The notes under the pieces were generated by a model, which saw only the letters and a program-made list of their open reading frames with translations, was not told where the DNA came from and ran no database searches. DNA of 64,000 nt from positions 138,995 through 202,994 of IMG/VR virus record IMGVR_UViG_3300045988_147927. One strand, given 5' to 3'. The stretch comes from a virus. The translations under genes were made by a program, and so were the position numbers. Shown in pieces: positions 2,205-41,414 of this stretch. The stretch's first letter is position 1. Every line of letters begins with the position of its first letter.

Positions 2205-3069
2205 ATGAATAGTAGGGTAGAGGATTTATTAGGTTCTTCTAGTTCTTATACTTCCATGACAGATAAAGAGAGAGAATACTTTATAGCACTTCTTAAAGAG
2301 GAGATGCACAAGAGGGAAGAGTCTGGTAAGTATGAGCAGATACGTGATATTGTAAGAATTGAAGAGTGGATTAATTCTGATTATTACATAGGGACAGACC
2401 AAAAAAGTATATACCCATACTGGAAAGATTTTATAGTAGACATATTCAGAGATACTAGAAAAGATAGTGAAAAGATTAATTCCGTCATATTAAGTGGTTC
2501 AATCGGCGTTGGTAAATCAACTGTTGCTGAGTTAATCATGATGCGTAAGATGTATGAGTTGTCTTGTTTTAAAAATATCAATGCTATGTTTAACTTAATG
2601 TCTAAAACTAATATAATGTTCCTGTATTTTTCAGTAAGTCAAAAACAAGCTGAGCGTACTGGGTTTGGTGAGTTTAGGTCTTTGGTTGACAGTTCTCCTT
2701 ATTTTAATGAGAACTTTTTACGTAATCAAAGATTGTCATCTTTATTAGTGTTTCCAGAGGGTATTAATTTTGCATATGGTTCTAGTGCTAGTGATAGTAT
2801 TGGTATGTCAGTTATATGTTCAATGCTCGATGAAGCAAACTTTTTGGGTGGTAATGGGCCTTCTAATGATAGTGAGAAAGCAACAGATTTATATGCTAAT
2901 ATAGTTAATAGGTCTAATTCTAGGTTTATTGTTGATGGTGGTGTCAATCATTCATTAAACATTTTAGTTTCATCAGCAACCTTTGAAAATTCTGCTACTG
3001 AGCGTCAAATTAGGTTATCTAGGAATGACCCACATACGATTGTTGCCGCACCAGCTCAATGGGAAAGAT
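2205..3069 (+). CDS. terL: Terminase large subunit, exon 1 (ATPase domain)
   Basis: Walker A GSIGVGKST and Walker B-like MLDEANF. The ORF ends ...AAPAQWER then TAG 3069-3071, which I read as intronic. Continuity with ...VKPNNF... at 5072. Junction 3069|5070 keeps frame (AGA T|AC GTC) but may be off by a few nt. Confidence 0.8.
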
Positions 3070-3560
3070 AGCAGTATGTAACTCTACATACTGTATAAAA
3101 ACCCCTATTTCATAAGTGATTATGAGATAGCTTGAATTTAAATACTAGGAAATCCTAAAGCTAGTTAAACTACAGCATAATTGGAAACAGTAAGTGCGAA
3201 TGTTGCGAAAGTAGAAAGAATTAACTAGATGGCATATGGTGAAATAAAAGCATGTCTTGTGATAAGATATGTCCTAAGTGCTGTAAATAATGGATGTTTA
3301 GTTACCAACTATTACATTTTGTGTAGTAGAGGTTCAACGACTAGGAGATTGAGTCTCCCTGATTAAATGTCAGATAACCTCTATAGGGTAGAGGGAAAGT
3401 AAAGCTACAAGCATTTATAATGACAAGACATTATAAAAATGGTAGAAGAAAAATATTCACATCTTTTTGTTAAGATGAACAAATAGTCTACGCTTATGTG
3501 AAAGCATAAGAGGTCTGCTAGTGATAGTAAGACTGCGTTAGAGGTTGCGTTCTAGCGTGA
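3070..3560 (+). ncRNA. Group I intron ribozyme core of the IStron
   Basis: P1-extension hairpin cagtatgta/tacatactg (3073-3096). ...aaatcctaaagct... (P4 region). ggttcaacgacta 3331-3343 (P7 5' strand). aaatagtc 3481-3488 (P7 3' strand), followed by hairpin cgcttatgtgaaagcataag. Near-identical blocks occur in capsid introns 1 and 2. Confidence 0.7.
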
Positions 3561-3600
3561 ATAAGATAAATATGTCTAAATTATAATATTACACGTAAAG

Positions 3601-3628
3601 TTGACACTCTTAATGTTTTCTATATAAT
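3601..3628 (+). promoter_or_regulatory. Consensus sigma-70 promoter for tnpB inside the IStron
   Basis: TTGACA (3601-3606), 16-nt spacer, TATAAT (3623-3628). GGAGG at 3645-3649. Confidence 0.7.
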
Positions 3629-3665
3629 TTAAGTTGTATAGAGAGGAGGTGTCAGCTTGGAATAA

Positions 3666-4883
3666 AAATTAAATAGTAACGATAACAAAATATATAGGTC
3701 AGTTAAGATTAGGTTATTACCAACAAAAGAGCAAGAGATTTTGTTTTGGAAGAGTGTAGGTGTTGCTAGATGGTCTTATAATTACTTTTTATCAGAGAGT
3801 TATAGGGTATATCAAGAATGGTTAGAAGATAAAAGTAAACCAAAGCATATATCTGAGATGGAGGTTAGAAAGTATATTAATAATCATCTTAAAAAGACTA
3901 CACATACATGGCTTAAAGAGGTTGGAAGTAATGTAATGAAACAGGGTGTCAAAGATGCCAACATAGCATTACAGAATTTCTTTAAATATAACAAAGGTTA
4001 TCCTAAGTTTAAATCTAAGAAAAGGTCTAAGCCTAGTTTCTATGTTAATTACGAAAGTTTAAAACGTACACCAAATGGATTTCGTGGTGAGAGAATTGGT
4101 TATGTTAAAACTAAGGAATCACTACCTATGATTGGTAAGAATCAAAAATACCGTAGACCTAGAATTAGTTTTGATGGTAGATTTTGGTACTTATCTGTTA
4201 GCTTTGAGGTTAAGAGGTTAGATGTTAAATTATCAGATACTAAGTTAGGTATAGACTTGGGCATTAAAGAGTTAGCTGTTGTTTCTAGTCAGAGTGGTAC
4301 TGATATTAAGAAGTATCATAATATAAATAAAACTTGTGAAGTAAAGAGATTAGAGAAAAAGCTAAAACGTGAGCAACGTAAGTTTTCACGTAAGATTCTT
4401 GTACATAAAGGTCTTTGTAATAATAAAACTAATCATAAAAAAGAACTAGAATTATGTAAAAACATTCAAAAACAAAAGAGTATAATTCAGAGATTATATA
4501 GACGATTGTTAAATATCAGGACTAATTATTTACATCAAACAACTACTGAGATAGTGAAAACCAAACCATCTCATATAGTTTTAGAAGATTTGAATGTTAG
4601 TGGAATGATGAAAAATCGTCATTTATCAAAGTCTATTATGTGTCAAAAATGGTATGAGTTTAGGAGACAGATAGAGTATAAAGCTGAATTATATGGTATT
4701 GAAGTTGTATTAGCAGATAGATTTTATCCTAGTTCTAAGACTTGTAGTTGTTGTGGTAATGTCAAGAGAGACTTAAAATTATCTGACAGAGTATATAGAT
4801 GTGATTGTTGTGGTAATGTTGTTGATAGAGATGTCAATGCATCAATCAATTTAGCTAATTATAATATAGAAAGTGTCAAATAA
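3666..4883 (+). CDS. tnpB: TnpB (RNA-guided RuvC nuclease, IS200/605 family); start codon unresolved
   Basis: RuvC-I GIDLGIKELAV, RuvC-II IVLEDLNVSGM, zinc finger CSCCGN...CDCCGN, RuvC-III DRDVNASINL. The N-terminal signature YRSVKIRLLPTKEQ lies upstream of the ORF-track start at 3741. The frame is open only from 3666, with no ATG/GTG/TTG in 3666-3740. TTG 3657 with a good RBS is followed by an in-frame TAA at 3663. Confidence 0.8.
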   Translation, partial: KLNSNDNKIYRSVKIRLLPTKEQEILFWKSVGVARWSYNYFLSESYRVYQEWLEDKSKPKHISEMEVRKYINNHLKKTTHTWLKEVGSNVMKQGVKDANIALQNFFKYNKGYPKFKSKKRSKPSFYVNYESLKRTPNGFRGERIGYVKTKESLPMIGKNQKYRRPRISFDGRFWYLSVSFEVKRLDVKLSDTKLGIDLGIKELAVVSSQSGTDIKKYHNINKTCEVKRLEKKLKREQRKFSRKILVHKGLCNNKTNHKKELELCKNIQKQKSIIQRLYRRLLNIRTNYLHQTTTEIVKTKPSHIVLEDLNVSGMMKNRHLSKSIMCQKWYEFRRQIEYKAELYGIEVVLADRFYPSSKTCSCCGNVKRDLKLSDRVYRCDCCGNVVDRDVNASINLANYNIESVK

Positions 4884-5069
4884 AAGATACTCTATATATG
4901 TACCTATCGTTACTAGGGAATTTAAGCCTTTGGGGTGTTATAACAAACAAGAGTAGTTGAAGTTATTTTAACAACGAAATTGAACGTAATGATTAAGGAA
5001 GATATATCGTGAGGTATATCAAAGTGTAAGTGTGTGATATTTATAATATGTACATATTTATCGTAACGG
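4800..5069 (+). ncRNA. Candidate TnpB omega (right-end) RNA scaffold overlapping the intron 3' end
   Basis: By analogy with IS200/605 TnpB systems, the guide RNA scaffold spans the 3' end of tnpB plus the right end. Local hairpins are present, e.g. gatatatc...gtatatc near 5003-5022. Boundaries were not determined. Confidence 0.35.
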
Positions 5070-6283
5070 ACGTCAAGCCAAACAATTTTAGTAAAAAGTT
5101 CTTCTATGTATTTAAAGGTTCTAATTACTTAGAGGCTAATATCGTTAATTCTACAGATGATGTAAATAACTTTAGGGTTTCTGAGGGATTAGGGAAGCAG
5201 AAGTATATTGATGGATTAGAAGATTATAAATCTATTAATAAGGCTATTGAAGAATTACCTCCACATATGCAGACTAAGTTTTTAAGAGTTCCTGTAGATT
5301 TGAGGGCTGGTTTTGAGACTAACTTATTGAGGTCTTTACAAGATATTGGTGGTGTATCTACAGGCTCACAAGGTAAGCTATTTAGTTCTCCTATGGTATT
5401 ACAAGATTGTGTTGATGAGAATAGGCATCACCCATTCGTTTCTAAAGAGATAATAATTTCTACTGGTGATGATATTCAAGTTAAGGATTATTTAAGAGAT
5501 GATTTTAGGTTAAAGTATCCTGAGAGACCTAGATATTTACATATTGACCAATCATTTAGGACAGATAGTACTGGTATATCTAGTGTGTATGTTGATGATA
5601 TTATAGAAGAAGATGGTGTTAAGAAGCCTGTTTTTGGTGTTGATTTTATGCTACGTATCAATCCACCTAAATCACCTAAGAAGATAGCTATATATAAGAT
5701 ACGTAATTTTGTCATTTATCTTGCTAATACAGTTGGTATGAGGATAGGTAAGTTGACATATGATATATTCAATTCTGAGGAATCAAGACAGATTCTTGAA
5801 GAGATGGGGTTTAATGTTGGTTATTTGTCAGTAGATAGAACTGATAGACCTTACCTTGATTTAGTAGAGATTATGTATGAGAAGAGGATTAAGTTATATG
5901 ACTATCCTATTTTGAGGTATGAGTTACTTAATCTTTTACATGATAGGGTTAAAAGGAAAGTAGACCACCCTAAAGTAGTTACAGATGCAGGGTTTGTTGA
6001 TTATGATGGTAAAGGTAATGATGGTGTTACAGGGACTAGGGTAGGTTCTAAGGATGTTGCCGATAGTTTATGTGGTGCTATTCAAAATGCTTTGCAGAGT
6101 ACTGTTTCTGATGCAGAGGGGAATAAGGGAACTTTTAATGATTTTCTTATTGCAAATCGTATAGGTTCTTATGTTGGTATAGATACACCTAATGATGTTT
6201 CTGTAGAAGAGTTAATTGATAGACAGATTGATGATATGATAGAAGATATTGAAGTATATGGTATCAATAATTTTAGATATTAA
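5070..6283 (+). CDS. terL: Terminase large subunit, exon 2 (nuclease domain)
   Basis: Continues ...QWE(R/Y)VKPNNFSKKFFYVFKGS. The first 14 codons of ORF 5030.. are read-through of element sequence. The gene is directly followed by the portal gene. Confidence 0.8.
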
Positions 6284-6297
6284 GAAGAGGTTATTAT

Positions 6298-8022
6298 ATG
6301 GCATGGTATGATTTATTTATTGGTAAGAGGGGGAATATTACCAATAATAGTAGTCAGAGTGATACAATAGAGGATTTAAATACAATAAAAGAGAATACAA
6401 CTGGTGATATCATACGAGAGGTTAAGATTGTTGAGGATGGTAGAGTAGGTTCTTTTTTTGATGGGAACATAGAATCAATACACTCAAAACAAAATATTAA
6501 TGAGGGTAAGGTAAATTTATCACCAAGTAATTTACAACAGTTGATAGGTAATGATGATACAAATGCTTTGGGGCAAGTTATCGATGGTATTCGTGGTGAT
6601 TATAGTTTAAGTGATATATTTTTAGAGAATGAAGAAATGTCTAAGGATTCTGTTATAGGTGCAGCTATGGAGATTCTAGCAGATGATTCTTGTACAGTTG
6701 ATGAAACAACTCATTTTGCTATTATGGTAGATTCTACTGATGAGGGGTTAAAGAAATTTATAGAAGATTTTTTGAGAAATAATATCAATATAGAAGATAG
6801 GCTTTGGTCTTGGGCGTATGAGATTGTTAAGCATGGTGATTTTAAACTTAGGAGAAGAGAGTATTATGCTGGTTCTGAAAAGAGTGGTATAAAGTCTGTT
6901 TATTATGAAGATGTAATAAATCCCTACCTTGTTTCTAGGATTGAGTATATGGGGAACGTATTAGGATATGAGGATGAGGATTATGCCTTTGAGAGTGGTT
7001 CATATCAAGATGCTGGTCAGTTTGGTACTGTTGGTAGTGGTATAAGTGGTAGTGCTAGGTTCGAGAAGAGTGATGAATTTGTTCATTTTATATCATCTAA
7101 ACTATCTAAGAGGGAAAAAATTAAGTTAAATGTTAAGAAGGCTGATAACACACGAGAAGAGGTTACTTGTTATCGTGTAGTAGGTACTTCTATAGTAGAC
7201 AGTGCTAGGACTATGTTTAGGATTAATGCTTTAATTGATAATATTCTTGTTTTATCACGTATTGCAAGGTCTACACAATTTAACCTTGTAAAGGTTGAGG
7301 TTGGTAATGCTGGTGCAGGACAAACACAACAAATGTTATCAGATGTTAGAAGGAGATTTCAAGCTAATACTAAGATGCAAAAAGGTGTAGGGTTTAGGTC
7401 TGACCCATCTCCAATTCCTATAAATAGTAATATTTATCTTCCTACAAGAGATGGTAAGGGTGATGTTACAGTAGAGAGTATTGGTGATGGTGTAGACGTG
7501 CAGTCTATTGTTGATGTTGATTACTTTACTGATAAACTTTTTGCTAGTTTAAAAGTTCCTAAACAGTATTTAGGTTTTGCAGAATCATTAGGTTCTATGG
7601 GTAATAATTCCCTTGTTAAACAGGATTTAAGGTATGCTCGTTCTGTTTCTAGGGTTCAACAAATCTTGATTAATGGTATTACAGATTTAGTTGAGAATTA
7701 CTTAAAATATAGGGGTAGAGGTTCTGATGTTGGTGCTTTTAGTATTAGGATGAGACCATTACCTACAAGTGAGACATCAACAAAAGTTGAAGAGTTTGTT
7801 TCAAATCTACAAATGATTGATTCAAGTAGTGCTTTTTTAGAATCTTATGCTGATTATATTGACAAGGCTAAGTGGTTGAAGTCGATGTTAAATCTTATAA
7901 ATGTAGACCCTAGTGATGTAGCTACAGATAAGTTTAAAGAGATAATCAAGTCTATTGAAGATGGTTCGTATAATGAAGAAGATTTTGCTAGTAGTGAGCC
8001 TGAAGATAGTGAAATGTATTAG
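6298..8022 (+). CDS. Portal protein (T4 gp20-like by size and position)
   Basis: 574-aa ORF immediately after terL with RBS GAAGAGG. Size and position are typical of portals, and the C-terminus is acidic. No motif-level proof. Confidence 0.65.
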   Translation: MAWYDLFIGKRGNITNNSSQSDTIEDLNTIKENTTGDIIREVKIVEDGRVGSFFDGNIESIHSKQNINEGKVNLSPSNLQQLIGNDDTNALGQVIDGIRGDYSLSDIFLENEEMSKDSVIGAAMEILADDSCTVDETTHFAIMVDSTDEGLKKFIEDFLRNNINIEDRLWSWAYEIVKHGDFKLRRREYYAGSEKSGIKSVYYEDVINPYLVSRIEYMGNVLGYEDEDYAFESGSYQDAGQFGTVGSGISGSARFEKSDEFVHFISSKLSKREKIKLNVKKADNTREEVTCYRVVGTSIVDSARTMFRINALIDNILVLSRIARSTQFNLVKVEVGNAGAGQTQQMLSDVRRRFQANTKMQKGVGFRSDPSPIPINSNIYLPTRDGKGDVTVESIGDGVDVQSIVDVDYFTDKLFASLKVPKQYLGFAESLGSMGNNSLVKQDLRYARSVSRVQQILINGITDLVENYLKYRGRGSDVGAFSIRMRPLPTSETSTKVEEFVSNLQMIDSSSAFLESYADYIDKAKWLKSMLNLINVDPSDVATDKFKEIIKSIEDGSYNEEDFASSEPEDSEMY

Positions 8023-20816: not shown

Positions 20817-21914
20817 TTGAATAAAAGTTTTAAAGTTAGGATTTATCCTACAAAAGAGCAATGTGTTCTTTTAGAAAAGACCTTTGGTGCAAACAGGTTT
20901 GTTTATAATTACTTTCTCAACTTAAAAAGTAAGTTGTATGAGTTTTATAAAATAAATCTTAGTTACAACAATTCTTCTAAAGTGCTAACAGAATTAAAGA
21001 AAACTAAAACTTGGCTTAAAGAGGTTGATAGTAAATCTTTAATTCAAACACTTAGGGATTTAGATAGAGCATATCAAAACTTTTTTAGTGGTAGAGGTAA
21101 ATACCCTAATTTTAAAAAGAAACAAGATAAAAACTCTTATCGTACTAATCAAAGCATTAAATTAGTCAATTCTTTTATTTCTATTCCAAAGGTAGGTCTA
21201 CTTAGATATAAAGATAAGTGTAAATTTGATGATAAACATATTCTTAAAATTTATAATGTAACAATATCTAAGACATCTAGTGGAAAATATTATGCTAGTA
21301 TATCAGCTGAGGTCTATATACCTAATTTTGAGAAAACCAATCAAAGTTGTGGTATAGACTTAGGTTTAAAAGATTTTGCAATTTTAGATACTGGTGAAAA
21401 GATAAAGAATCCTAGAATATTAAAGCATCTTGAAGTTAAGTATAGAAAATTAGCTAAAGCTGTTTCAAGAAAAGTTAAAGGTTCAGCTAATTATCAAAAA
21501 GCTAAGTTAAAGTTAGCAAGGTTTCATGAGAAAGTTACGAATATTCGTAAAGATTTTCTTCATAAATTATCTACTAACTTAGTAAAAACTTATGATATTA
21601 TTTGTGTTGAGACTCTTAAAGTTAAAAATATGATGAAAAATCATACATTAGCAAAATCATTTCAAGATGTAGCACATTCTGAGTTTATAAGACAGTTAGA
21701 ATATAAAGCTAAGTGGTATGGTAAAACTATCTCTAAAATAGATAGATTTTATCCATCAAGTCAGGTATGTTCTAATTGTGGATATAAAAACAAAGATGTT
21801 AAAAATCTTAGTATTCGTGAGTGGATTTGTCCAGAGTGTGGGGTTCATCATGATAGAGATATCAATGCATCAATTAATATTTTGAATGAGGGATTACGAC
21901 TTATAGAAGTGTAA
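20817..21914 (+). CDS. tnpB: TnpB (RNA-guided RuvC nuclease)
   Basis: N-terminal [11 protein letters not shown], Ruv[13 protein letters not shown], Ruv[14 protein letters not shown], zinc finger CSNCGY...CPECG, Ruv[17 protein letters not shown] start. Confidence 0.85.
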
Positions 21915-23932: not shown

Positions 23933-24730
23933 ATGAAAACTAATATTTACGAACAATATCGTCCATTATTGGAATCTTGGAAAGGTTATACTGATGTTGT
24001 AAAACAGCACGTAGATGGCTATTCTGATGTAGAAGCTACACAACTATCTATGTTGCTTGAAAATACTAAATCTGAATTGGAAATGACAAAAGGTCGCATG
24101 ATGAATGGTACAGCTATTCATGAAGGCACTGATATTTCTATGGTTAATACATTTACATCTAATGTATTTGATATTATCACAGCTGTCATGCCAAATTTGA
24201 TTGCGAATGATATCGTCAGTGTTCAACCTCTTGACCGTAGGAATGGACAAGTATTCTTCTTGAAATTCACTTATGGTAATAATAAAGGTGCTATTAAAGC
24301 TGGTACTGATATGATTTCTTCTCAACGTGGTTTCGTTGGTGGTGATTATAGTGGTGAACACGTAAGTGGTGAATCATTGACAATCACTTCTAATGCAGTA
24401 TCTCAAAAAGTATTGCATACTCCAATTAAACCTGGTACATTCCGTTTGACTTCACCTGATAAAATCGGCGATGAATTATTGGATGTTCCTAATGCAGATG
24501 GTATCACAGGTACTATTACAGATACTGCACCTACTGGTTTGGGTGCTGGTACTGTAAACTATGTTACTGGTGAAATTACATTGACTGGTGTAACAGTTGC
24601 ACATCTAGAAGCTGATTTTGACTATGACCAAAATAGTTTCGATGCTCCTGTAGACCAAGTTGATGTACGTGTGGTTTCTGAGCCTGTAGTTGCTCGTCCA
24701 CGTAAATTAAAATCCGTATATATGTTCGAT
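23933..24730 (+). CDS. Major capsid protein (T4 gp23-like), exon 1
   Basis: PNLIANDIVSVQPLDRRNGQVFFLKFTYG parallels T4 gp23 PNLIAFDICGVQPM.SPTGQVFALR.VYG. Exon end CGAU 24727-24730 pairs with intron GUCG 24765-24768 (U-G wobble at the splice site). Confidence 0.85.
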
Positions 24731-25927
24731 AAAACTTGTGCATAATAGTTTTCATTTATGCAATGTCGCCTTATCATAGAAATATGGTGAGTGATAACTC
24801 TACGAATTGCTGGAAGTTCCTAAAGTATAACACACTACAACGTAACTCGAAAGGGTAAGCGTGAAAGTTGCGAAAGCAGAAAAAAGTTGTTATAATACCC
24901 TATGATGAAATAAAAGGTATTTTAGTATTATACTAAAATATTTCTAAGGGGGATAATAAGAATGGATAATCAGCAGTCAGTGGTTACATATATTGAATGT
25001 CCTTATTGTGGTAAGAAATTAAAATTTTTAAATGCAACTCATCTTAAACGTCATGGCAAAACAGTTAGTGATGTTAAATCAGAGTTTCCAAATCAATCTT
25101 TAGCCTCTCAGTCTTATAGAGATAGGCAGAGAGAAGATACAAGAGATAGGTGGGAAGAGGAAGGTTATAGAGATAGAGTTTCTGCTACATTAAAAATTAC
25201 ACAAAATAGGGAAGATATAAAAGAGAAAATAGCTAATGGGAATAGAGTTAAATGGTCTAATGAAGATTATAAAAGGAGGGTATCTAAGAAGATAAGAGAT
25301 ACTCAAAATAGACCAGATAAGAAATTACATATGTCTAAGTTATCTTCAATGGCTTTAACAGATGGAACTATAGGTGATATATGGAAGCATGTTACTTATG
25401 GTGATAAAGTGTTGTGTTTGAGGAGTTCATTAGAGTTAAAGACTTTTAATTACTTAGTTGAATTAAATATTCCTTTTGAGTATGAAAGTATTAGATATGA
25501 GTATAAGATTGATGGTTTTAGTTTATTTCATGTAATTGATTTTTATTTATCTCAATATAATTTAATTATAGAGGTTAAACCTAAGTATAAATTTAAAGAA
25601 GGGTTTATTAAAAATCACAATGAAGAGTATCGAAAAATCATCGCAAAACGTGATGGTGGTATTGCTCTCGGGTATAACTATATTTTCATAACAGAGGATA
25701 ATTTAGACAGTAAAGACTCTTTTTATAAAGCTATTAGTAAGTATATGTAGTCAAAGATTCAACGACTAACCCAGACATGGGTGTAGGTTATTATGAAAGA
25801 TAGCCGAAGTGTAGAGTACCTAAGTTACAATAGGTAATATGGTAAAGATATAGTCTGTTCTCATGTGAAAGCATGAGTTTTGAATTGTTAAACTTTCATT
25901 AAATACAATTCAATTTGATACAATTAG
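24731..25927 (+). ncRNA. Group I intron 1 in the capsid gene (carries an endonuclease ORF)
   Basis: P1 hairpin tgcataa/ttatgca plus IGS gtcg. gaattgctgg...tcctaaag (P3/P4). attcaacgacta 25757-25768 and aagatatagtc 25845-25855 (P7 strands). Hairpin ctcatgtgaaagcatgag. Terminal G at 25927. Confidence 0.75.
24962..25750 (+). CDS. Intron-encoded homing endonuclease: MucR/Ros-like zinc finger + PD-(D/E)xK nuclease
   Basis: N-terminus CPYCGKKLKFLNATHLKRHGKTVSDV. C-terminus RSSLELKTFNYL...FEYE...IDFYLSQYNLIIEVKP (E...D...ExK). RBS AAGGGGG. Confidence 0.65.
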   Translation: MDNQQSVVTYIECPYCGKKLKFLNATHLKRHGKTVSDVKSEFPNQSLASQSYRDRQREDTRDRWEEEGYRDRVSATLKITQNREDIKEKIANGNRVKWSNEDYKRRVSKKIRDTQNRPDKKLHMSKLSSMALTDGTIGDIWKHVTYGDKVLCLRSSLELKTFNYLVELNIPFEYESIRYEYKIDGFSLFHVIDFYLSQYNLIIEVKPKYKFKEGFIKNHNEEYRKIIAKRDGGIALGYNYIFITEDNLDSKDSFYKAISKYM

Positions 25928-26035
25928 GTTGCATACGATTTAAAAATGTCATTCGGCTTAGATATGGATACAGTTATCCTAAAAGCTACGAGTGGTGAAA
26001 TTGGTTACGAAATTGACAATGAGATTAACGTAGAT
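25928..26035 (+). CDS. Major capsid protein, exon 2
   Basis: Translates VAYDLKMSFGLDMDTVILKATSGEIGYEIDNEINVD. Joined to exon 1 it gives KLKSVYMFDVAYDL..FGLDMD, with the same spacing as the gp23 motif KLKA.WS.ELAQDL.A.HGMDAE. Exon end AGAU pairs with intron GUCU 26073-26076. Confidence 0.75.
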
Positions 26036-27203
26036 AATGCTATTATGTTGTTAGTAGCTTAAATAATACATAGTCTCCGTACATAGTGATATGTGCGAAA
26101 AATAATCTATTTAATTGCTGGAAAGTCCTAAAGCTAACTAAACTACAACGTAATCATGAAATATGGGTAAGCGTGAGAGTTGCTAAAGCAGAAAAAATTA
26201 GTTAGATGACATAAGGTGAAATAAAAGCTATAATATGATATAATTATAGTCCTAAGTGTTGTAATAATGGATAATCAGCCGCTAAGTCCTTAATAGGGAA
26301 AAGTTCAACGACTATCCGAAAGCAACAAAAGTTGTGAGTAGATAATGAGAATTATCAAAAGGAGTACGGCTCTAGTGAGTGGGTGAGAATCCCTTAAATG
26401 GAAATGGTAGATGTGTACAAAGGATGGTTTAAAATTACATATAGAATGTCCTATATGTCATAAGAAGTATAAGATGATATCAAATAATCATCTTGTTAAA
26501 AAACATAATATTACATTAGAAGAGTTTAGAGATATCTATAAAGGTTATCCTACAGAGAGTGAGTATTTACAAAAGGTTAGAGTGGATGTTGGATTAGCAA
26601 TAGGCTCTAAAGAGAGTGTTAAGTCTTTTAGAAGTGCTAAAGCTAAGAGACAGCATGAGAGTGGAAATCTCAATCCGTCTAAAACACTTAATTATTTGTG
26701 GGAAAATAAAAAAAGATTGGATGCGTGAAAGACAGCATATAGGTAATAGTACTGAAGCTGAGTTTAAACGTAAATCAGAAGTTTCTAGACGTTTATGGTC
26801 TTGTCCTGAGTGGGTTAATTCTCGTAGGGATAGGAATGTGAGATGTGAATTAAATGGTTATGTTTTATATGTTAGAAGTTCTTATGAAAAGGTAGCTTGC
26901 CAGTTCTTAGATTCTTTGGGTGTTAAATTTGAGTATGAAACAAAAGTATTCAAATATTACTATGATGGAAGATTTAGAAATTATATTGTTGATTTATATC
27001 TTCCTTTACATGATGTTTATTTAGAGGTAAAACCTAAAGACCTAGAATCAGATGATAAAAATAAAGCTAAAATACAGTCTGTAATTGATAGTGGTAATAT
27101 AATTACTTATGTTGATGAGGATTGGATATGTTCTATAGATGATTTTAAACATCATTTGAGTAAGTACATAAAGATATAGTCTGCTCTATGGTGAAAGTCA
27201 TAG
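26036..27203 (+). ncRNA. Group I intron 2 in the capsid gene (carries a frameshifted endonuclease gene)
   Basis: IGS gtct in the same context as intron 1 (ata-GTCT-cc versus aat-GTCG-cc). aattgctggaaagtcctaaagct. gttcaacgactat. aaagatatagtc plus hairpin ctatggtgaaagtcatag. Terminal G at 27203. Confidence 0.75.
26411..27179 (+). pseudogene. Intron-encoded zinc-finger + PD-(D/E)xK endonuclease interrupted by a +1 frameshift at an A7 run (about 26706-26712)
   Basis: ORF 26411..26728 (CPICHKKYKMISNNHLVKKHNITLEEF) and ORF 26616..27179 (RSSYEKVACQFL...FEYE...VDLYLPLHDVYLEVKP) together match the architecture of the intron-1 enzyme. The frames switch at aataaaaaaag. Confidence 0.6.
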
Positions 27204-27602
27204 AAGGGTATAATGGAAACGATTATACTCGTAACAAAAGGTATGCAAGACCTTTTAAAAATTGCTGGTAGCCAATCTACTTGGAATAAACTTCCTGAGT
27301 ATAAAGGTCAAGACGTTAAAACACATGAAGCTACATTGTTTAATGCTATCAATGATGCGTCCAATACAATTCTTGGTAACACTAAACGCTATGAAGCTAC
27401 ATTTATTATCTGTGGTAAAAATGCCGCTACATACATTGAATCCTTGAACACAAATATCGGTCAAGTACGTGAAATCTTCAAACGTGTGTCTACAAATGGT
27501 ATCGTTGGTGGTCCACACTTGGTAGGTATCTTGGATGAAAAATATAAAGTATATAAAAATCCATACTACCCTGATAATGAAATCTTGGTAGGTGCTAAGG
27601 GT
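27204..27602 (+). CDS. Major capsid protein, exon 3
   Basis: KGIMETIILV...KVYKNPYYPDNEILVGAKG. Exon end AAGGGU 27597-27602 is complementary (with a U-G wobble) to intron GCCCUU 27637-27642. Confidence 0.75.
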
Positions 27603-27997
27603 GAACATATTAATGTTGCTTAATGATAAACATTTTGCCCTTGTAAAACCCTGTGAATTGCTGGGACGTGCTAAAGACTGTTATACCAAAGTGTAAAAAT
27701 TAACAGTATGAGTTGTGGGTTAGCACTCCACAACGATGAAATGTACAATCAGCAGCCTTATATATTTAAAGATAGAATATATGGGGTTCATCGACTATCG
27801 AAAACAGAGATGTAAAGTAAGACTGGTAACTCGGTCAAGGTTATTATAGGTTACATCTTTTAAGTGAGTAGAGTAGGAATTAAAGTTCCGAAGTGCAGGG
27901 AGTTATTACTGATAACCTAAAGGTAATAACTATGATATAGTCAGTGCTAACAAGAAATATGTTAGTTATTTAATTTAATAGTCAGTTAAAATGTTAG
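27603..27997 (+). ncRNA. Group I intron 3 in the capsid gene (ORF-less, about 395 nt)
   Basis: gaattgctggg...gctaaag. ggttcatcgactatcg and atgatatagtc (P7 strands). Terminal G at 27997. No ORF inside. Confidence 0.7.
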
Positions 27998-28183
27998 GAA
28001 ATGTTCATTGAAGCTGGCTATATTTATGCTCCATACTTGCCTTTATTCGCAAGTCAATTATTGGTTGATGCAGACTTCAAAGCACAACGTGGGTTCTGTA
28101 CACTATACGCCAAAAAAGCAGTAAATAAATATATGTATCATCGTTTGACTTTGGTAGATAACAAACAAGTAGCCGCTAACTAA
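27998..28183 (+). CDS. Major capsid protein, exon 4
   Basis: EMFIEAGYIYAPYLPLF... Joined to exon 3 it gives GAKGEMFIEAGYIYAPYLPL, with the same spacing as the gp23-type G.RGASEWDAGIFYAPYVPL. Confidence 0.75.
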   Translation, partial: EMFIEAGYIYAPYLPLFASQLLVDADFKAQRGFCTLYAKKAVNKYMYHRLTLVDNKQVAAN

Positions 28184-28372: not shown

Positions 28373-29149
28373 TTGGAGGGTATATTGATAGTGAAAGATA
28401 TTTTAGCTAAAGATGGTATATTGTGTGGTATTCCTAGTGATAGGAGTTGTAATTTGATTGTATTGTTCTCTGGTGGATTTGATTCTACTGCATTATTACA
28501 TATGGCAGTTAATACTAAGAAGAAATATAATACTATAAAAACAGTATATGCTTTGTATGTTAAAAGTAATCTATTAGATGAAGGGAAAGTTAAGTTAGAG
28601 GAAAATCATGTAAAAAAGTTTATTTCTTATATTAATCAAGATGAGGAGATTGTAAAGTTAGTTACTTATGAGAGTTCATTTAGTGATTTAGAAGAGTATG
28701 CTTATAGTGAAAATTCATATGACTTAATATTTATTAATGCTATTAATTCAGTAGTACATATGATGGGTGGTGCTGATGTTAATATAGTATTGAATGGCTC
28801 ATTAGATGGAGATTCAAGGGTATATCATCTACCATATTATAAAAGTATGGTTGAAGGCTTCAATAAAGAGTATAGGGGTGTAGATGTGGTTATGATGTTC
28901 CCACTTATGCAGATTAATAAACCTAGAATTATAGATTATTTACTCAACAACAATTTATATCAGTATTGTACTTGTTGTGAGAGTCCTAATAGTGATGTCT
29001 TTTGTAATAGTTGTAAGGAGCATTTAAGGGCTTTATATGAATTATTACTTATCTATGATGTGTATGGTGATATTGAGCCTAAAGATGGAAATGAAGAGTT
29101 TGTTCGTGGTGAAATAAATAGGATACATGGGGTTGAGTCTGATGAGTGA
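28373..29149 (+). CDS. PP-loop ATPase, QueC-like
   Basis: LIVLFSGGFDSTALL (SGGxDS PP-loop). C-terminal Cys cluster CTCCES...FCNSCKEHLRA resembles the QueC zinc site. TTG start. Confidence 0.5.
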   Translation: MEGILIVKDILAKDGILCGIPSDRSCNLIVLFSGGFDSTALLHMAVNTKKKYNTIKTVYALYVKSNLLDEGKVKLEENHVKKFISYINQDEEIVKLVTYESSFSDLEEYAYSENSYDLIFINAINSVVHMMGGADVNIVLNGSLDGDSRVYHLPYYKSMVEGFNKEYRGVDVVMMFPLMQINKPRIIDYLLNNNLYQYCTCCESPNSDVFCNSCKEHLRALYELLLIYDVYGDIEPKDGNEEFVRGEINRIHGVESDE

Positions 29150-31091
29150 TACTAACGATAAAAGACACTTATGGGGTGGTAAGGGTAAAAGAACATATAA
29201 TAATGGTGTGATAGCTAAAAGATATTTTGAAGGTGAGCAACCTGAAGGATTTGTACTTGGAATGTTACCACGTACTGATGAGCAAAAGGCTAAAAGTAAT
29301 GCTAAGAGGGTTAAAACTACAATAGAGAAGTACGGTGTTTCTAATGTAGCACAGTCTAAAGATGTGTATGAAAAGATGTTAGAGACAAATCTTAAAAAGT
29401 ATGGTGTTGAGCATCCACAGACTCTTGAATCTCAAAAAGAAAAGGTAAAGAAAACAAATCTAGAGAGATATGGTACTACTAATGGTAAGGTGTTAAAACC
29501 AAAAGTAGATAAGCCTAAAAAAGAGAAAAAAGTAAAATTACCTAAAGTTAAAGATACTCGTAAAGGACATTACTATAATAATAGTATCATCACTAGAAAA
29601 ATTAAAGAGGGTGATGTTATACCTGATGGGTTTGTTAGAGGAATGTTATTAAGTGATGAACTTAAAAAGAATAGGTCAGCTAAGGCTAAAGAGACATTTC
29701 TCAAAAAATATGGTGTAGATAACCCTGCTAAGTCTAAAGAGGTACTAGTTAAGATACAGAAAACAAATTTAGATAGGTATGGTGTTGAATGTTCTGCACA
29801 ATCAGAAGTTGTTAAAGAAAAGATAAAAGCTACAAATCTTAAAAAATACGGTGTTGAGTATTCTTTTCAAGCAGAGGAAGTTAAGGATAAAATCAAAGCT
29901 ACAAGTCTAGAGAGGTATGGTGTAGAAAATCCATCTAAGTCAGAAGTTATTAAGAGTAAGATTGTTGAATCTAATCGTAAGAATTTAGGTGTAGATTATC
30001 CTATGCAGTCTAAGGATGTGATGGATAAGTCTAGGGCAACTTCTTTTGAAAAGTATGGAACTGAGTATCCTAATCAGTCAGAAATTGTTAAATCTAAGAT
30101 TGACGCTAGTACTTTAGAGCATTATGGTGTTAATCGTGCTTGTAAGTTAGATGAATTTAAGCAAAAAATCGTAGATACTAATAGAGAACGGTATGGTGTA
30201 GATTATACTTGTTTAATATATAGTGGTAAGTTAAAGGGTAATGACAGTAGTTACAACCGTTCTTTTGCTGAGTTATTAGATATTAATAACATTACATATG
30301 AGAGAGAGTTTTTATTACAAAAATATTCCTATGATTTTAAAGTAGGGAATACTTTGATTGAGATAGACCCCACTGCTACTCATAATACTTATTTCAGCCC
30401 TTATGGTGATAATAGAATTGATGTTAATTATCATAGAGATAAGACTAAGTTAGCTAAAGATAATGGATATAGTGTAATTCATATATTTGAATGGGATGAT
30501 ATTAATAAAGTTATGCAATTATTGAAAAATAGGGTTACTGTATATGCTAGAAAATGTGAAGTAAGGATGGTTAGTGATGTAGATACTGGTAATTACTTAG
30601 ATACATACCATTTACAGGGTACTTGTAGAGGACAGAAAATTAGATTAGGTCTATATTATGATAATCAATTAGTATCATTAATGACTTTTGGTAAATCACG
30701 TTTTAATAAAAATTGTGAATATGAATTATTGAGATATTGTGCTAGTTACAATGTAGTAGGTGGTGCTGAGAAGTTATTTAAGTACTTTGTAGATAATTAT
30801 AAACCTAGCAGCATTGTGTCATATTGTGATACATCAAAATTTAGTGGTAAGGTGTATGATACTTTGAGTTTTGAGTTTATTAAGACAAACAAACCTAGAA
30901 AGCATTGGTATAGTATGAAAGAGAAACGTCATATTACTGATGGATTATTATTAAGTCAGGGATATGATAGATTATTTAAAGAGAATCATGGTAAAGGCAC
31001 TTCTAATGAAGAGTTAATTCTTAGTAGAGGGTATTTACCTGTATATGATTGTGGTCAATCAACTTATATTTGGAGAAGTGATAATGTCTAG
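29142..31091 (+). CDS. Free-standing endonuclease-like protein: about 12 tandem 32-33-aa KYGV repeats + PD-(D/E)xK-like core + C-terminal domain
   Basis: Repeats of the type T.LKKYGVENPSQS.EVK.KIK. Core FAELLD...YEREF...YSYDFKVGNTLIEIDPTATHN. ATG 29142 overlaps the upstream stop (ATGAGTGA). Confidence 0.5.
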   Translation: MSDTNDKRHLWGGKGKRTYNNGVIAKRYFEGEQPEGFVLGMLPRTDEQKAKSNAKRVKTTIEKYGVSNVAQSKDVYEKMLETNLKKYGVEHPQTLESQKEKVKKTNLERYGTTNGKVLKPKVDKPKKEKKVKLPKVKDTRKGHYYNNSIITRKIKEGDVIPDGFVRGMLLSDELKKNRSAKAKETFLKKYGVDNPAKSKEVLVKIQKTNLDRYGVECSAQSEVVKEKIKATNLKKYGVEYSFQAEEVKDKIKATSLERYGVENPSKSEVIKSKIVESNRKNLGVDYPMQSKDVMDKSRATSFEKYGTEYPNQSEIVKSKIDASTLEHYGVNRACKLDEFKQKIVDTNRERYGVDYTCLIYSGKLKGNDSSYNRSFAELLDINNITYEREFLLQKYSYDFKVGNTLIEIDPTATHNTYFSPYGDNRIDVNYHRDKTKLAKDNGYSVIHIFEWDDINKVMQLLKNRVTVYARKCEVRMVSDVDTGNYLDTYHLQGTCRGQKIRLGLYYDNQLVSLMTFGKSRFNKNCEYELLRYCASYNVVGGAEKLFKYFVDNYKPSSIVSYCDTSKFSGKVYDTLSFEFIKTNKPRKHWYSMKEKRHITDGLLLSQGYDRLFKENHGKGTSNEELILSRGYLPVYDCGQSTYIWRSDNV

Positions 31092-40849: not shown

Positions 40850-41086
40850 TATAGTTATTATAAGGTAATAAATAGGTACACTATATTGTATGAATATATG
40901 AGAGTATGATTGTATCATATAGGATAGATATAGTGTATCTTCATAATCACATACTAATAATAATAAAGATATAACTAATATAATAATTACTATATAACAT
41001 ATTATTAATACACTAGATATTAATAAATAAATTTCTTCTAACGAAGAAAAGTATTTATTTACTATGTGGAGGTAGTATAAAGATAT

Positions 41087-41170
41087 TAGTAAAACTAATA
41101 TAGTAAAACTAATATAGTAAAACTAATATAGTAAAACTAATATAGTAAAATTAATATAGTAAAATTAATA
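41087..41170. repeat. Six tandem 14-bp repeats (4 x tagtaaaactaata, 2 x tagtaaaattaata)
   Basis: Read directly. Perfectly head-to-tail with no spacers. Confidence 0.95.
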
Positions 41171-41414
41171 TAAGTATAAAAAATAGGGTACAGGGATAAT
41201 ACTAACTGTATTTTATTAGAGAAAAGAAATAAACAAAAAGTGAGTATTCAAGAGAGATATAATAGAGGTTCTATATACTGTATTATACTAAAGAAGAGAT
41301 ATAGAGAGATACTATAAGTTCTATGTATTATAGTATTCATAAAAGGAAACATAGAAAGGATAAGAGAGAATTAATTTAGGTTCTATATACTAATTAAGTT
41401 CTAAAAGAAAAGAT

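What the first reader, a model, noticed from the sequence alone, without database searches (positions are those of the whole stretch)
3070..5069. Large-terminase gene split by a 2.0-kb IStron (group I intron fused to a TnpB element)
Seen: the TerL ATPase half (2205-3069) and nuclease half (5070-6283) are separated by a stretch with four parts.
- Group I core blocks nearly identical to those of the capsid introns: ...tcctaaagct..., ggttcaacgacta 3331-3343, and aaatagtc 3481-3488 plus the cgcttatgtgaaagcataag hairpin.
- A consensus TTGACA-N16-TATAAT promoter and GGAGG.
- A tnpB ORF with an intact RuvC D/E/D triad and zinc finger.
- A structured tail of about 190 nt ending in G 5069.
Joining 3069 to 5070 restores the frame (…AAPAQWER-Y-VKPNNF…).
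Known: chimeric group I intron / IS200-605 elements (IStrons) were described in Clostridioides difficile, the Bacillus cereus group and Fusobacterium. They splice out as a whole, and TnpB guide-RNA processing competes with splicing.
Inference: an essential packaging gene of a phage depends on ribozyme excision of a whole RNA-guided transposon. The element could home to intron-less terL alleles of co-infecting phages through TnpB cleavage.
Basis: partly seen in the sequence, partly recalled or inferred. Interest (0 to 1): 0.75.

Follow-up and report, generated by a model that had tools for sequence, protein, structure and literature searches.

The report
IStron splitting a phage terminase gene
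The DNA-packaging (large terminase) gene of an oral jumbo phage is interrupted by a 2-kb self-splicing intron fused to a TnpB guide-RNA transposon; this is a new example of a known element type, and its own nuclease gene carries an early stop codon.

Summary
The core observation holds. terL is interrupted by a group I intron, a tnpB gene and a guide-RNA (omegaRNA) tail. Several details are wrong.

- **Boundaries.** The element is 3064-5069 (2006 nt), not 3070-5069. Nearly identical phages with an empty site read CAATGGG|ACGTG. All uninterrupted homologues read QW(D/E)VKP, not QWERYVKP.
- **Subtype.** It is the group B, IS607-type IStron, like those of Clostridium botulinum phage c-st. It is not the IS200/IS605 type.
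  - It sits after TGGG and ends in ACGG.
  - Its tail contains a RAGATH-18 RNA.
  - Its TnpB matches the IS607 TnpB structure 8iaz.
  - It has no tnpA.
- **tnpB.** The gene is not intact. Codon 3 is TAA where every relative has GAA. The rest of the gene and the RuvC and zinc-finger residues are preserved.
- **Ribozyme.** Rfam's group I model does not detect this copy. The ribozyme is supported by homology to sister and c-st copies and by compensatory changes in most helices.
- **Host gene.** The spliced protein folds like a large terminase.
- **Family.** Sister copies sit in many other phage genes, including the portal gene. They sit preferentially on in-frame Trp codons.

Verdict: a new member of a known kind, of moderate interest. 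Splicing and cleavage were not tested.

The parts
2205..3063 (+). terL exon 1. It ends ...CAA TGG G. If unspliced, the frame runs on to TAG at 3069-3071.
   Evidence: ORF list. Junction fixed by the empty-site alleles and homologues. Walker A GSIGVGKS, Walker B MLDEANF and VSSAT are read directly from the translation.
3060..3063 (+). TGGG: the insertion target, the TnpB TAM, and the 5'-exon side of P1. TGG is the in-frame Trp286 codon.
   Evidence: TGGG is invariant immediately 5' of all 12 aligned sister copies, which sit at different sites. The experimentally defined TAM of the related CboIStron is TGGG (bioRxiv 10.1101/2023.11.20.567912).
3064..5069 (+). The whole IStron, 2006 nt. Because of the GG at both junctions it could equally be 3063-5068.
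   Evidence: Comparison of filled and empty sites. Sister copies share the same ends.
3064..3566 (+). Group I (IA2-like) ribozyme.
- P1: internal guide CCC 3102-3104, with an extension hairpin 3072-3093.
- P2: 3105-3130.
- P3: 3133-3139 with 3453-3459.
- P4-P6 domain: about 3146-3330.
- P7: 3339-3343 with 3484-3488.
- P7.1 and further hairpins: 3344-3393.
- P7.2: 3405-3445.
- P8: 3460-3477.
- P9, P9.1 and P9.2: 3493-3559.
   Evidence: Alignment to sister copies and to the phage c-st IStron. Hairpins are re-predicted in each copy from different sequences. P3 and P7 are complementary in three sequence types. On P7.2 and P9-P9.2, 100% of 423 cells pair, 9 pairs show compensatory changes, and 0/500 shuffles match this. 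The sister copy in L006 scores 43.5 bits (E = 2.4e-8) against Rfam Intron_gpI.
3601..3628 (+). Internal sigma-70-type promoter, TTGACA-N16-TATAAT. It lies downstream of the ribozyme and upstream of tnpB.
   Evidence: 12/12 consensus match. Conserved in the sister copies (columns 730-770).
3657..4883 (+). tnpB, an IS607-type RNA-guided nuclease gene. The Shine-Dalgarno GGAGG lies at 3645-3649 and the TTG start at 3657. A premature TAA lies at 3663-3665 (codon 3). The rest of the frame is open to TAA at 4881-4883.
   Evidence: Pfam domains. PDB 8iaz, E = 3e-74, with the RuvC Asp/Glu/Asp aligned. 96% identity to the intact 408-aa P0121. GAA at codon 3 in L001, L020 and L021.
4884..5069 (+). omegaRNA (reRNA) scaffold, which is also the transposon right end and the intron 3' end.
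- RAGATH-18 core: 4927-5000.
- Pseudoknot: CGTTAC 4908-4913 with GTAACG 5063-5068.
- Terminal ACGG, with the final G at 5069 (or 5068).
   Evidence: Rfam hit. All sister copies end ...ATCGT(A/G)ACGG and then diverge. The minimum-free-energy fold pairs 4908-4913 with 5063-5068. Phage c-st has CGATAC/GTATCG at the same places, a compensatory change.
5070..5089 (+). The first ~20 nt of exon 2 (ACGTCAAGCCAAACAATTTT). This is the predicted guide segment of the omegaRNA and matches the target in an empty allele.
   Evidence: Inferred from the TnpB/omegaRNA architecture: the guide is the sequence just 3' of the right end (bioRxiv 10.1101/2023.11.20.567912; PMC11061315). Empty alleles read ACGTGAAGCCTAACAATTTT, with 2 mismatches at positions 5 and 11.
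5070..6283 (+). terL exon 2, including the nuclease domain.
   Evidence: ORF list and homologues. The model of the spliced 690-aa protein matches large terminases.

Best explanation
Window 3064-5069 is a non-autonomous group B (IS607-type) IStron. It is inserted in the sense strand of the large-terminase gene, directly after the TGG-G of Trp286.

**Splicing (inferred).** terL is transcribed through the element. The 5' 500 nt fold into an IA2-like group I ribozyme. Its CCC guide pairs with the exon GGG. The ribozyme excises the entire 2006 nt, using the terminal G of ...ACGG as the final intron nucleotide. This joins CAATGGG to ACGTC and restores ...AAPAQW-D-VKPNNF. Unspliced RNA is translated only to the TAG at 3069-3071. 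This gives a 288-aa fragment, so packaging depends on splicing.

**Guide RNA (inferred).** An internal promoter at 3601-3628 can make transcripts that lack the ribozyme. These carry tnpB and the omegaRNA, whose scaffold ends at the 3' splice site and whose guide is the first ~16-20 nt of exon 2. In the characterised relative, TnpB plus omegaRNA cuts empty TGGG-plus-target alleles, and recombinational repair copies the element in. Guide maturation and splicing compete for the same 3' end.

**This copy (shown).** tnpB has a G-to-T nonsense change at codon 3 and there is no tnpA. On its own the copy is probably a splicing-competent passenger. Its guide RNA would work only with TnpB supplied by a sibling copy or by a co-infecting phage.

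**Shown:** the anatomy, the boundaries, the homology, the covariation and the coexistence of empty and filled alleles.
**Inferred:** splicing, cleavage and homing.
For: - **Boundaries and ORF restoration.** Empty-site alleles. The spliced sequence is 99.25% identical to them over 800 nt without gaps. Seventeen homologues read QW(D/E)VKP.
- **Subtype.**
  - TGGG lies 5' of all sister copies and ...ACGG ends all of them, at 7 or more different sites.
  - RAGATH-18 is present, and this RNA is the IS607 TnpB guide-RNA core (PMC11061315).
  - The best PDB hit is 8iaz, E = 3e-74.
  - The nearest isolate-phage relative is phage c-st orfB, at 62.5% identity.
  - The c-st intron core is 78% identical to the window's over 149 nt.
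  - Group B is defined by GG-ending targets and a CGG 3' end (PMC4227781).
  - The CboIStron has a TGGG TAM, a UCGG scaffold end, and demonstrated splicing and cleavage (bioRxiv 10.1101/2023.11.20.567912).
- **Ribozyme.** Compensatory changes in P1ext, P2, P3, P5, P6, P7.1, P7.2, P8, P9, P9.1 and P9.2. A sister copy scores 43.5 bits against Intron_gpI.
- **Pseudoknot covariation** between the window and c-st.
- **tnpB nonsense codon**.
- **No tnpA** in the window or the fetched loci.
- **Host gene is TerL by fold** and lies next to a T4-type portal gene.
- **Persistence.** The same filled site occurs in 11 or more contigs from human oral metagenomes. Their tnpB is intact.
Against: - Rfam Intron_gpI gives no hit for this copy even at E <= 10, and the sister copy stays below the gathering score.
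- P3 has one U-U mismatch in the terL-type copies.
- P1 is only a 3-bp GGG/CCC pairing, and the nucleotide before the splice site is a G rather than the canonical U.
- The tail's folding energy is no better than that of shuffled sequence (z = -0.28).
- No RNA data exist, so splicing is inferred.
- The empty alleles found differ from this copy's guide at 2 of the first 16 positions. Cleavage of those particular alleles is therefore uncertain.
- Only 64 kb of a genome of roughly 200-250 kb is visible. A tnpA or a second intact tnpB of this type elsewhere cannot be excluded.
Confidence: 0.85

Rival explanations
1. One reading: an IS200/IS605-type IStron at 3070-5069. It splices after U3069 to give ...QWER-Y-VKP..., has an intact TnpB, and actively homes into intron-less terL alleles.
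For: U3069 would give the canonical U before the 5' splice site. The 3069+5070 join is in frame. The RuvC and zinc-finger residues are intact.
Against: - No homologue has the two extra residues.
- The empty alleles place the boundary after TGGG.
- Sequence similarity among sister copies starts right after TGGG.
- There is no TTGAT-like target, no TCAG 3' end and no subterminal palindromes of the group A kind (PMC4227781).
- The omegaRNA is RAGATH-18, which belongs to IS607 TnpBs.
- tnpB has TAA at codon 3.
Confidence: 0.03
2. There is no splicing. TerL is made as two polypeptides, a 288-aa N fragment and a C fragment, which assemble into a working terminase.
For: Gene callers annotate two ORFs, 288 aa plus about 410 aa. 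An in-frame GTG at 5030 opens a 417-aa ORF.
Against: - The break falls in an invariant QW-x-VKP motif inside the ATPase region.
- Close relatives (98% identity) are contiguous at this point.
- There is no Shine-Dalgarno sequence before GTG 5030, which lies inside the omegaRNA.
- The insert has every part of a mobile IStron and also occurs in other genes.
Confidence: 0.03
3. The TAA at codon 3 of tnpB is a sequencing or assembly error, or is bypassed by re-initiation at TTG 3741. In that case this copy makes active TnpB and homes autonomously.
For: It is a single G-to-T difference from contigs that are 98-99.8% identical. The remaining 405 codons are open and 96% identical to the intact P0121. 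Several database entries (P0201-P0210) are called from the equivalent internal TTG.
Against: The window sequence reads TAA unambiguously. Starting at TTG 3741 removes 28 N-terminal residues, including most of the HTH_OrfB_IS605 match (E = 4e-12 with the N-terminus, 0.0027 without).
Confidence: 0.15
4. terL is restored at the DNA level. A serine-recombinase TnpA supplied in trans excises the element, so RNA splicing is dispensable.
For: IS607-type elements excise precisely at the GG core (bioRxiv 10.1101/2023.11.20.567912). Empty and filled alleles coexist in the population.
Against: No TnpA homologue was found in the window or in any fetched locus. The ribozyme helices are maintained by compensatory changes, which argues for selection on splicing. 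Excision in a minority of genomes could not supply TerL for the rest.
Confidence: 0.04

Closest known systems
CboIStron / CbISt3 and CbISt4: group B, IS607-type IStrons of Clostridium botulinum and its phages c-st and D-1873 (Tourasse 2014, PMC4227781; Zedaveinyte 2023, bioRxiv 10.1101/2023.11.20.567912; PMC13521648)
   Same: - Same layout: an IA2-like ribozyme at the 5' end, then tnpB, then an omegaRNA whose end is the 3' splice site.
- TGGG target and TAM, and a terminal CGG preceded by AT-rich sequence.
- A pseudoknot that overlaps the last nucleotides of the element.
- An internal promoter-like site before the ORFs.
- TnpB is 62.5% identical, and the ribozyme core is 78% identical over 149 nt.
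- Also found in phage genomes, inside phage genes.
- CbISt4 likewise lacks tnpA.
   Different: - Different host lineage: jumbo phage contigs of about 200-250 kb from human oral metagenomes, whose only isolate-phage DNA match was to Fusobacterium phages.
- The scaffold ends ACGG rather than UCGG.
- The terL copies have a diverged 5' end (AAAGATAG... instead of TAACAAAAC...) and extra hairpins after P7.1.
- The host gene is terL.
- This copy's tnpB has a nonsense codon.
BcISt1 (Bacillus cereus group B IStron)
   Same: Inserted after a GG-ending site. The nucleotide before the 5' splice site is not a U. The 3' end is CGG. Splicing was shown in vivo (PMC4227781).
   Different: More distant in sequence. 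It is chromosomal rather than in phage structural genes. It was not compared directly here.
CdISt1 / FnISt1 / FnISt2 (group A, IS200/IS605-type IStrons of C. difficile and Fusobacterium)
   Same: The same concept: an intron-transposon chimera that splices out as a whole. Fusobacterium is a known IStron host genus.
   Different: Group A elements have T-rich pentanucleotide targets (TTGAT and similar), a TCAG 3' end, subterminal palindromes and a tyrosine-type (Y1) TnpA lineage. None of these is present here.
ISFba1 TnpB with RAGATH-18-derived reRNA (PMC11061315; best PDB match 8iaz)
   Same: The same TnpB clade (E = 3e-74) and the same RAGATH-18 guide-RNA core. The RuvC Asp/Glu/Asp residues are conserved.
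   Different: The ISFba1-type TAM is AGGAG or GAGGG, not TGGG, and those elements carry no intron.
Homing-endonuclease group I introns of phages (T4 td / nrdB, Twort, and this window's own capsid-gene introns)
   Same: A self-splicing IA2-type ribozyme in an essential phage gene at a conserved site. The window's capsid introns share the P, Q, R and S core blocks.
   Different: Here the mobility module is an RNA-guided nuclease plus guide RNA at the 3' end, not a protein-only endonuclease in a loop. One family can therefore occupy many different genes.

Membership tests
IStron (group I intron / IS chimera) | A group I ribozyme occupies the 5' part of the element | tested here: met
   Homologous to the c-st and sister IStron ribozymes. 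P1-P9.2 can be drawn, with compensatory changes. The P7 and R/S core blocks are present. See the separate row for the Rfam score.
IStron (group I intron / IS chimera) | An IS200/IS605- or IS607-family orfB (tnpB) lies in the 3' part, inside the intron boundaries | tested here: met
   Three Pfam TnpB domains, within 3064-5069.
IStron (group I intron / IS chimera) | The transposon ends coincide with the splice sites, and removal restores the host ORF exactly | tested here: met
   The empty-site alleles are contiguous at TGGG|ACGT. 99.25% identity over 800 nt without gaps.
IStron (group I intron / IS chimera) | The whole element self-splices from RNA | not testable with these tools
   This needs RT-PCR or in vitro splicing. 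It has been shown for CdISt1, BcISt1 and the CboIStron in the literature.
Group B (IS607-type) IStron | Inserted after a GG-ending site (AGGG / TGGG / GAGG), with a non-U nucleotide before the 5' splice site | tested here: met
   TGGG is invariant before all 12 aligned copies.
Group B (IS607-type) IStron | The 3' terminus is CGG | tested here: met
   All 13 aligned copies end ...ACGG. One further terL copy (L019) ends ...GCGG.
Group B (IS607-type) IStron | Serine-recombinase TnpA (ORF A) | tested here: not met
   tblastn with c-st TnpA finds nothing in the window or the loci. There is no room between 3566 and 3657. Known members such as CbISt4 also lack ORF A, so this makes the element non-autonomous rather than a non-member.
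   The target is TGGG and the end is ACGG.
Rfam RF00028 Intron_gpI | Score at or above the gathering score of 50 bits | tested here: not met
   No hit for 2900-5300 even at E <= 10. The sister copy in L006 scores 43.5 bits. The capsid introns score 22-33 bits.
Rfam RF03064 RAGATH-18 (IS607 TnpB guide-RNA core) | Score at or above the gathering score of 44.9 bits, located downstream of an IS607-type tnpB | tested here: met
   55.7 bits at 4927-5000, 44 nt after the tnpB stop codon.
Functional TnpB RNA-guided nuclease | RuvC Asp/Glu/Asp residues and a zinc finger | tested here: met
   Aligned to 8iaz (GIDLG, LEDLN, VDRD and CxxC...CxxC).
Functional TnpB RNA-guided nuclease | An uninterrupted full-length ORF | tested here: not met
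   TAA at codon 3 (3663-3665). Relatives have GAA there.
Phage large terminase (host gene) | ATPase plus RNase H-like nuclease fold of TerL | tested here: met
   The top 11 Foldseek PDB hits are all large terminases (HK97, E = 8.7e-16). The model is of moderate confidence (pLDDT 68.9). Sequence profiles (Pfam, PHROGs, PDB) give no hit.

The most novel reading that the evidence does not exclude
This IStron family may be the main homing system of a clade of human oral jumbo phages. It occupies many essential genes, including terL and portal. It may preferentially anchor its TGGG TAM on in-frame Trp codons, which cannot be changed synonymously, so the host cannot escape at the TAM without changing the protein. 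Copies whose tnpB is dead, like this one, would persist as guide-RNA-only riders served in trans by TnpB from sibling copies or co-infecting phages. The synonymous differences in the target of empty alleles would then be escape mutations.
Probability: 0.3. Interest if true: 0.6.

Novelty: new member of a known kind. Interest (0 to 1): 0.4.

Why it matters
- **Spread of the element type.** RNA-guided transposon-introns of the experimentally characterised CboIStron kind are common in uncultured oral jumbo phages. There they interrupt genes the phage cannot do without, including terminase and portal.
- **A natural test system.** Filled, empty, tnpB-intact and tnpB-dead alleles coexist at about 98-99% identity. 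This lets two questions be tested: whether TnpB-guided homing operates between co-infecting phages, and how the trade-off between splicing and guide-RNA maturation plays out when fitness depends directly on splicing.
- **Annotation.** terL, portal and capsid genes in these phages are called as fragments. They need intron-aware annotation.

Tried and rejected
- **Rfam on the element.** At the gathering threshold and at E <= 10, only RAGATH-18 was found and no group I hit.
- **Sequence identification of TerL.** Pfam on each half and on 17 homologues, PHROGs, and a PDB profile search all failed to identify the host protein as TerL. Only the fold comparison did.
- **MAFFT alignment A1.** It is out of register between the terL-type and the common copy type around P6, R, P7.1 and P8. 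RNAalifold on it was uninformative there. I used folding between conserved anchor motifs and explicit strand checks instead, and ran the pair-count tool only on the well-aligned 3' domain.
- **Canonical U-G 5' splice site.** I looked for an internal guide complementary to GAAAGAU and found none. A splice after U3060 is impossible, because the right end supplies only GG.
- **Orientation of insertions.** This is not informative. Sense-strand TGGG outnumbers antisense 159 to 14 in this genome anyway.
- **An absolute Trp-codon rule.** The first 7 sites suggested one. It did not hold with more sites and is only an enrichment, 20 of 32.
- **Chance pattern hits.** 75 of the left-end pattern hits had no CCTAAAG intron motif within 260 nt downstream. 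They were discarded as chance or unrelated matches.
Full report
**What is in the sequence.**
Window 2205-6283 holds one reading frame interrupted by about 2 kb. The N part (288 aa to a TAG at 3069-3071) carries Walker A (GSIGVGKS), Walker B (MLDEANF) and VSSAT motifs. The C part resumes at 5070. Between them lie four features.
- A structured region with group I core blocks: GGTTCAACGACTA at 3331-3343, TAGTC at 3484-3488, and a CTTATGTGAAAGCATAAG hairpin. Three introns in the capsid gene of the same window carry related blocks.
- A 12/12 sigma-70 consensus promoter at 3601-3628, followed by GGAGG at 3645-3649.
- A tnpB frame with all three Pfam TnpB domains.
- A 186-nt tail with a RAGATH-18 match at 4927-5000 (55.7 bits against a gathering score of 44.9).

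**Where the element really begins.**
A search with the joined protein found about 200 homologues. Every contiguous one reads AAPAQW-(D/E)-VKP across the break. The closest ones (97-98% identical, 1117 aa because they carry an intein elsewhere) read QWDVKPNNF. Joining 3063 to 5070 gives QWDVKP exactly.

At the DNA level, two contigs with an empty site (L002, L003) read ...CTCAATGGG|ACGTGAAGCC... without interruption. The window's 400 nt on each side of 3063|5070, joined in silico, align to them at 99.25% over 800 nt with no gap. The element is therefore 3064-5069 (2006 nt). There is a one-nucleotide ambiguity because G precedes both junctions. The final intron nucleotide must be a G, so the choice is 3063|5070 or 3062|5069. 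A splice after U3060 is impossible, because the right end supplies only GG.

**Which kind of IStron.**
I aligned twelve sister copies, fetched through the TnpB protein from metagenomic and viral contigs.
- All have TGGG immediately 5' of the element. Upstream of that their flanks are unrelated, so they sit at different insertion sites.
- All thirteen aligned right ends finish ...ATCGT(A/G)ACGG and then diverge.

Tourasse et al. (PMC4227781) define group B IStrons by GG-ending targets (AGGG/TGGG/GAGG), a CGG 3' end, a non-U nucleotide before the 5' splice site, and IS607-type ORFs. Group A (CdISt1, FnISt1/2) has T-rich pentanucleotide targets and a TCAG end. This element is group B. Further support:
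- RAGATH-18 is the guide-RNA core of IS607 TnpBs (PMC11061315).
- The best PDB match of the TnpB is 8iaz (E = 3e-74), with the RuvC Asp/Glu/Asp residues and the zinc finger aligned.
- The closest TnpB in isolated phages is orfB of Clostridium phage c-st (62.5% identity). It lies in the c-st IStron next to split phage genes.
- The c-st ribozyme core is recognisably homologous, and that element ends ...TCGTATCGG.
- The CboIStron of the same family has a TGGG TAM and a UCGG scaffold end. It has been shown to splice, to cleave DNA and to promote its own retention (bioRxiv 10.1101/2023.11.20.567912).
- In that element, 3' splice-site choice depends on a terminal CGG preceded by AT-rich sequence within the last 18 nt (PMC13521648). 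This fits ...ATATTTATCGTAACGG here.
- No TnpA homologue is present in the window or the loci. The element is therefore non-autonomous, like CbISt4.

**Is the 5' part a group I ribozyme?**
Rfam's Intron_gpI model does not hit this copy, even at E <= 10. The sister copy in L006 scores 43.5 bits (E = 2.4e-8), below the gathering score of 50. The window's capsid introns score 22-33 bits. The model is therefore insensitive to this lineage, and I relied on comparative structure.

I used conserved single-stranded motifs as anchors. The segments between anchors fold into the same hairpins in each copy from different sequences.
- P1 extension: CAGUAUGU/ACAUACUG, against ...AUAU/AUAU..., against CUGUU/AACAG.
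- P2: an 11-bp or 10-bp stem with a GNRA loop, completely different in sequence between the two copy types.
- P5: CUAGUUAA/UUAACUAG, against CUCUAC/GUAGAG, against CCUUAC/GUAAGG.
- A GNRA-capped P5 sub-hairpin with eight different 4-bp stems.
- P6a: CCC/GGG, UCC/GGA and UCC/GGG.
- P7.1: GGAGA-UUGAG-UCUCC against UCUCC-UUGAG-GGAGA, so all five pairs are flipped.
- P8: CAUCUU/AAGAUG, UCCUGU/ACAGGA, UCCUAC/GUAGGA and CAUCUC/GAGAUG.

The long-range helices P3 and P7 are complementary in all three sequence types. The terL type has one U-U mismatch in P3.

On the well-aligned 3' domain (P7.2, P9, P9.1, P9.2; 14 distinct sequences including c-st), all 423 cells pair. Nine pairs carry compensatory changes. 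No shuffle of 500 and no slid register comes close.

P1 is minimal. The exon GGG pairs with CCC at 3102-3104, plus two intron pairs in the common copy type. This matches the report that mutating the TAM disrupts 5' splice-site pairing in the CboIStron.

**The guide-RNA end.**
CGUUAC (4908-4913) pairs with GUAACG (5063-5068) in the minimum-free-energy fold. In c-st the same two places read CGAUAC and GUAUCG, a compensatory flip. This corresponds to the pseudoknot described for IS607 omegaRNAs, whose 3' half overlaps the nucleotides needed for splicing (PMC13521648). The folding energy of the tail alone is unremarkable (z = -0.28). The predicted guide is the start of exon 2, ACGUCAAGCCAAACAA. 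The donor's own ACGG differs from the TGGG TAM at positions -4 and -3. This is the self-avoidance logic shown for the CboIStron.

**tnpB is damaged in this copy.**
The frame that carries the TnpB domains is open from 3666. Its natural start is the TTG at 3657, 7 nt after GGAGG. This is followed by GAA and then TAA (3663-3665). More than a hundred relatives begin M/L-(E/K/V)-E-K-L-N-S-N-D. The contigs closest to the window (L020, L021 and L001, 95-98% identical) have GAA at this codon. It is a single G-to-T nonsense change. The other 405 codons are 96% identical to the intact P0121. Starting at the next TTG (3741) would remove most of the N-terminal HTH match. It could be a recent inactivation or a sequencing error, and I cannot tell which.

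**Is the host gene a terminase?**
Sequence profiles are silent: Pfam, PHROGs and PDB give no hit. Two database entries are named terminase by their source. An AlphaFold2 model of the spliced 690-aa protein, built with 16 homologues, has a mean pLDDT of 68.9. Its top eleven PDB matches are all phage large terminases: HK97 (E = 8.7e-16), D6E, Sf6 gp2, the T4 gp17 ATPase and the G20c nuclease. The next gene is a T4-type portal. The break is at Trp286, about 25 residues after VSSAT, in an invariant QW-x-VKP motif. It lies inside the ATPase region, not between the ATPase and nuclease domains.

**Population context.**
- The exact 288-aa N fragment occurs in 11 contigs, some labelled human oral metagenome and up to 248 kb long. 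In the places shown the adjacent tnpB is the intact 408-aa form.
- Other relatives combine the IStron with one or two inteins in terL.
- The window's only matches to isolated phages are short stretches of Fusobacterium phage introns.
- Sister copies interrupt other ORFs, and joining their flanks restores long frames. One site is the portal gene, which is uninterrupted in this window.
- Scans with the conserved left end gave 32 distinct intragenic TGGG sites. In 20 the TGG is an in-frame Trp codon, in 7 the phase is xTG-GG, and in 5 it is xxT-GGG. The background in this window's ORFs is 45:44:70 (binomial P = 6e-5).
  - This bias is exploratory: the sites are not phylogenetically independent, and the baseline comes from one window.
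  - A possible reason is that TGG cannot be changed synonymously, so such TAMs persist.
- Orientation is not informative, because antisense TGGG is rare in these genes.

**Mechanism and standing.**
The best-supported reading has four parts.
- terL mRNA must lose the whole 2006-nt IStron by group I self-splicing, which joins 3063 to 5070.
- Transcripts from the internal promoter would give tnpB mRNA and omegaRNA without the ribozyme.
- Guide maturation and splicing compete for the 3' end, as shown for the CboIStron.
- This copy cannot make full-length TnpB and has no TnpA. It probably persists as a spliced passenger, and its guide could be used only in trans.

None of the RNA or cleavage steps was tested here. 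The element type, its mechanism and its occurrence in phage genes are already published. What is new is the host lineage, the terL site, the abundance of the family in these phages, and possibly the Trp-codon bias.

Noticed in passing
window 23933-28183: The major capsid gene appears to be split into four exons by three group I introns (about 24746-25925, 26065-27200 and 27625-27990). The first carries a 262-aa endonuclease-like ORF (24962-25750). The second carries a related ORF broken into two frames (26411-26728 and 26616-27179). Rfam Intron_gpI hits are below threshold (33, 22.8 and 22.2 bits). The exon junctions were not mapped.
   Followed up: partly
window 20817-21914: A second, intact tnpB (365 aa, PHROG 506, E = 5e-134). 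It is only 34% identical to the IStron TnpB. It lies in an intergenic gap between a structural gene and the next ORF. No RAGATH-18 and no intron-sized upstream region were seen. It is probably a plain IS605/IS607-type element with its own guide RNA.
   Followed up: no
L001-L003, L023 and proteins P0001-P0069 (relatives of window 2205-6283): The closest terL homologues are 825-1130 aa long because they carry one or two inteins (Intein_splicing and LAGLIDADG or PT-HINT domains) that the window's terL lacks. Some contigs combine inteins and the IStron in the same gene. terL is a hotspot for three different kinds of selfish element.
   Followed up: partly
L002 about 6880-7671, L006 2411-4406; compare window 6298-8022: In relatives a sister IStron interrupts the portal gene at ...EDRLWSW|AYEIVKH. 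The window's portal gene is uninterrupted at that TGGG.
   Followed up: partly
sister-copy insertion sites (L004-L139): Of 32 distinct intragenic TGGG insertion sites, 20 place TGG as an in-frame Trp codon, against a 28% background in this window's ORFs (binomial P = 6e-5). This is a possible preference for TAMs that cannot be changed synonymously. The test was not corrected for phylogeny.
   Followed up: partly
window 5070-5089 versus L002/L003 5141-5160: The empty terL alleles differ from this copy's predicted guide at positions 5 and 11, both synonymous (GTC/GTG and CCA/CCT). Other filled alleles differ again. This could be drift or escape from TnpB targeting.
   Followed up: no
window 29127-32470: Two tandem paralogous regions about 80% identical (30321-31071 and 31720-32470). 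They lie within or after a 654-aa ORF built from many 69-nt (23-aa) KYGV-type repeats. They were not identified.
   Followed up: no
window 41073-41172: Seven or so tandem copies of a 14-nt unit (TAGTAAAACTAATA), with a related sequence at 43715-43751. The function was not examined.
   Followed up: no
phages collection hits H8-H45: TnpB homologues about 51-53% identical occur in many Twort-like Staphylococcus phages, annotated as 'transposase'. Whether these are also intron-linked was not checked.
   Followed up: no
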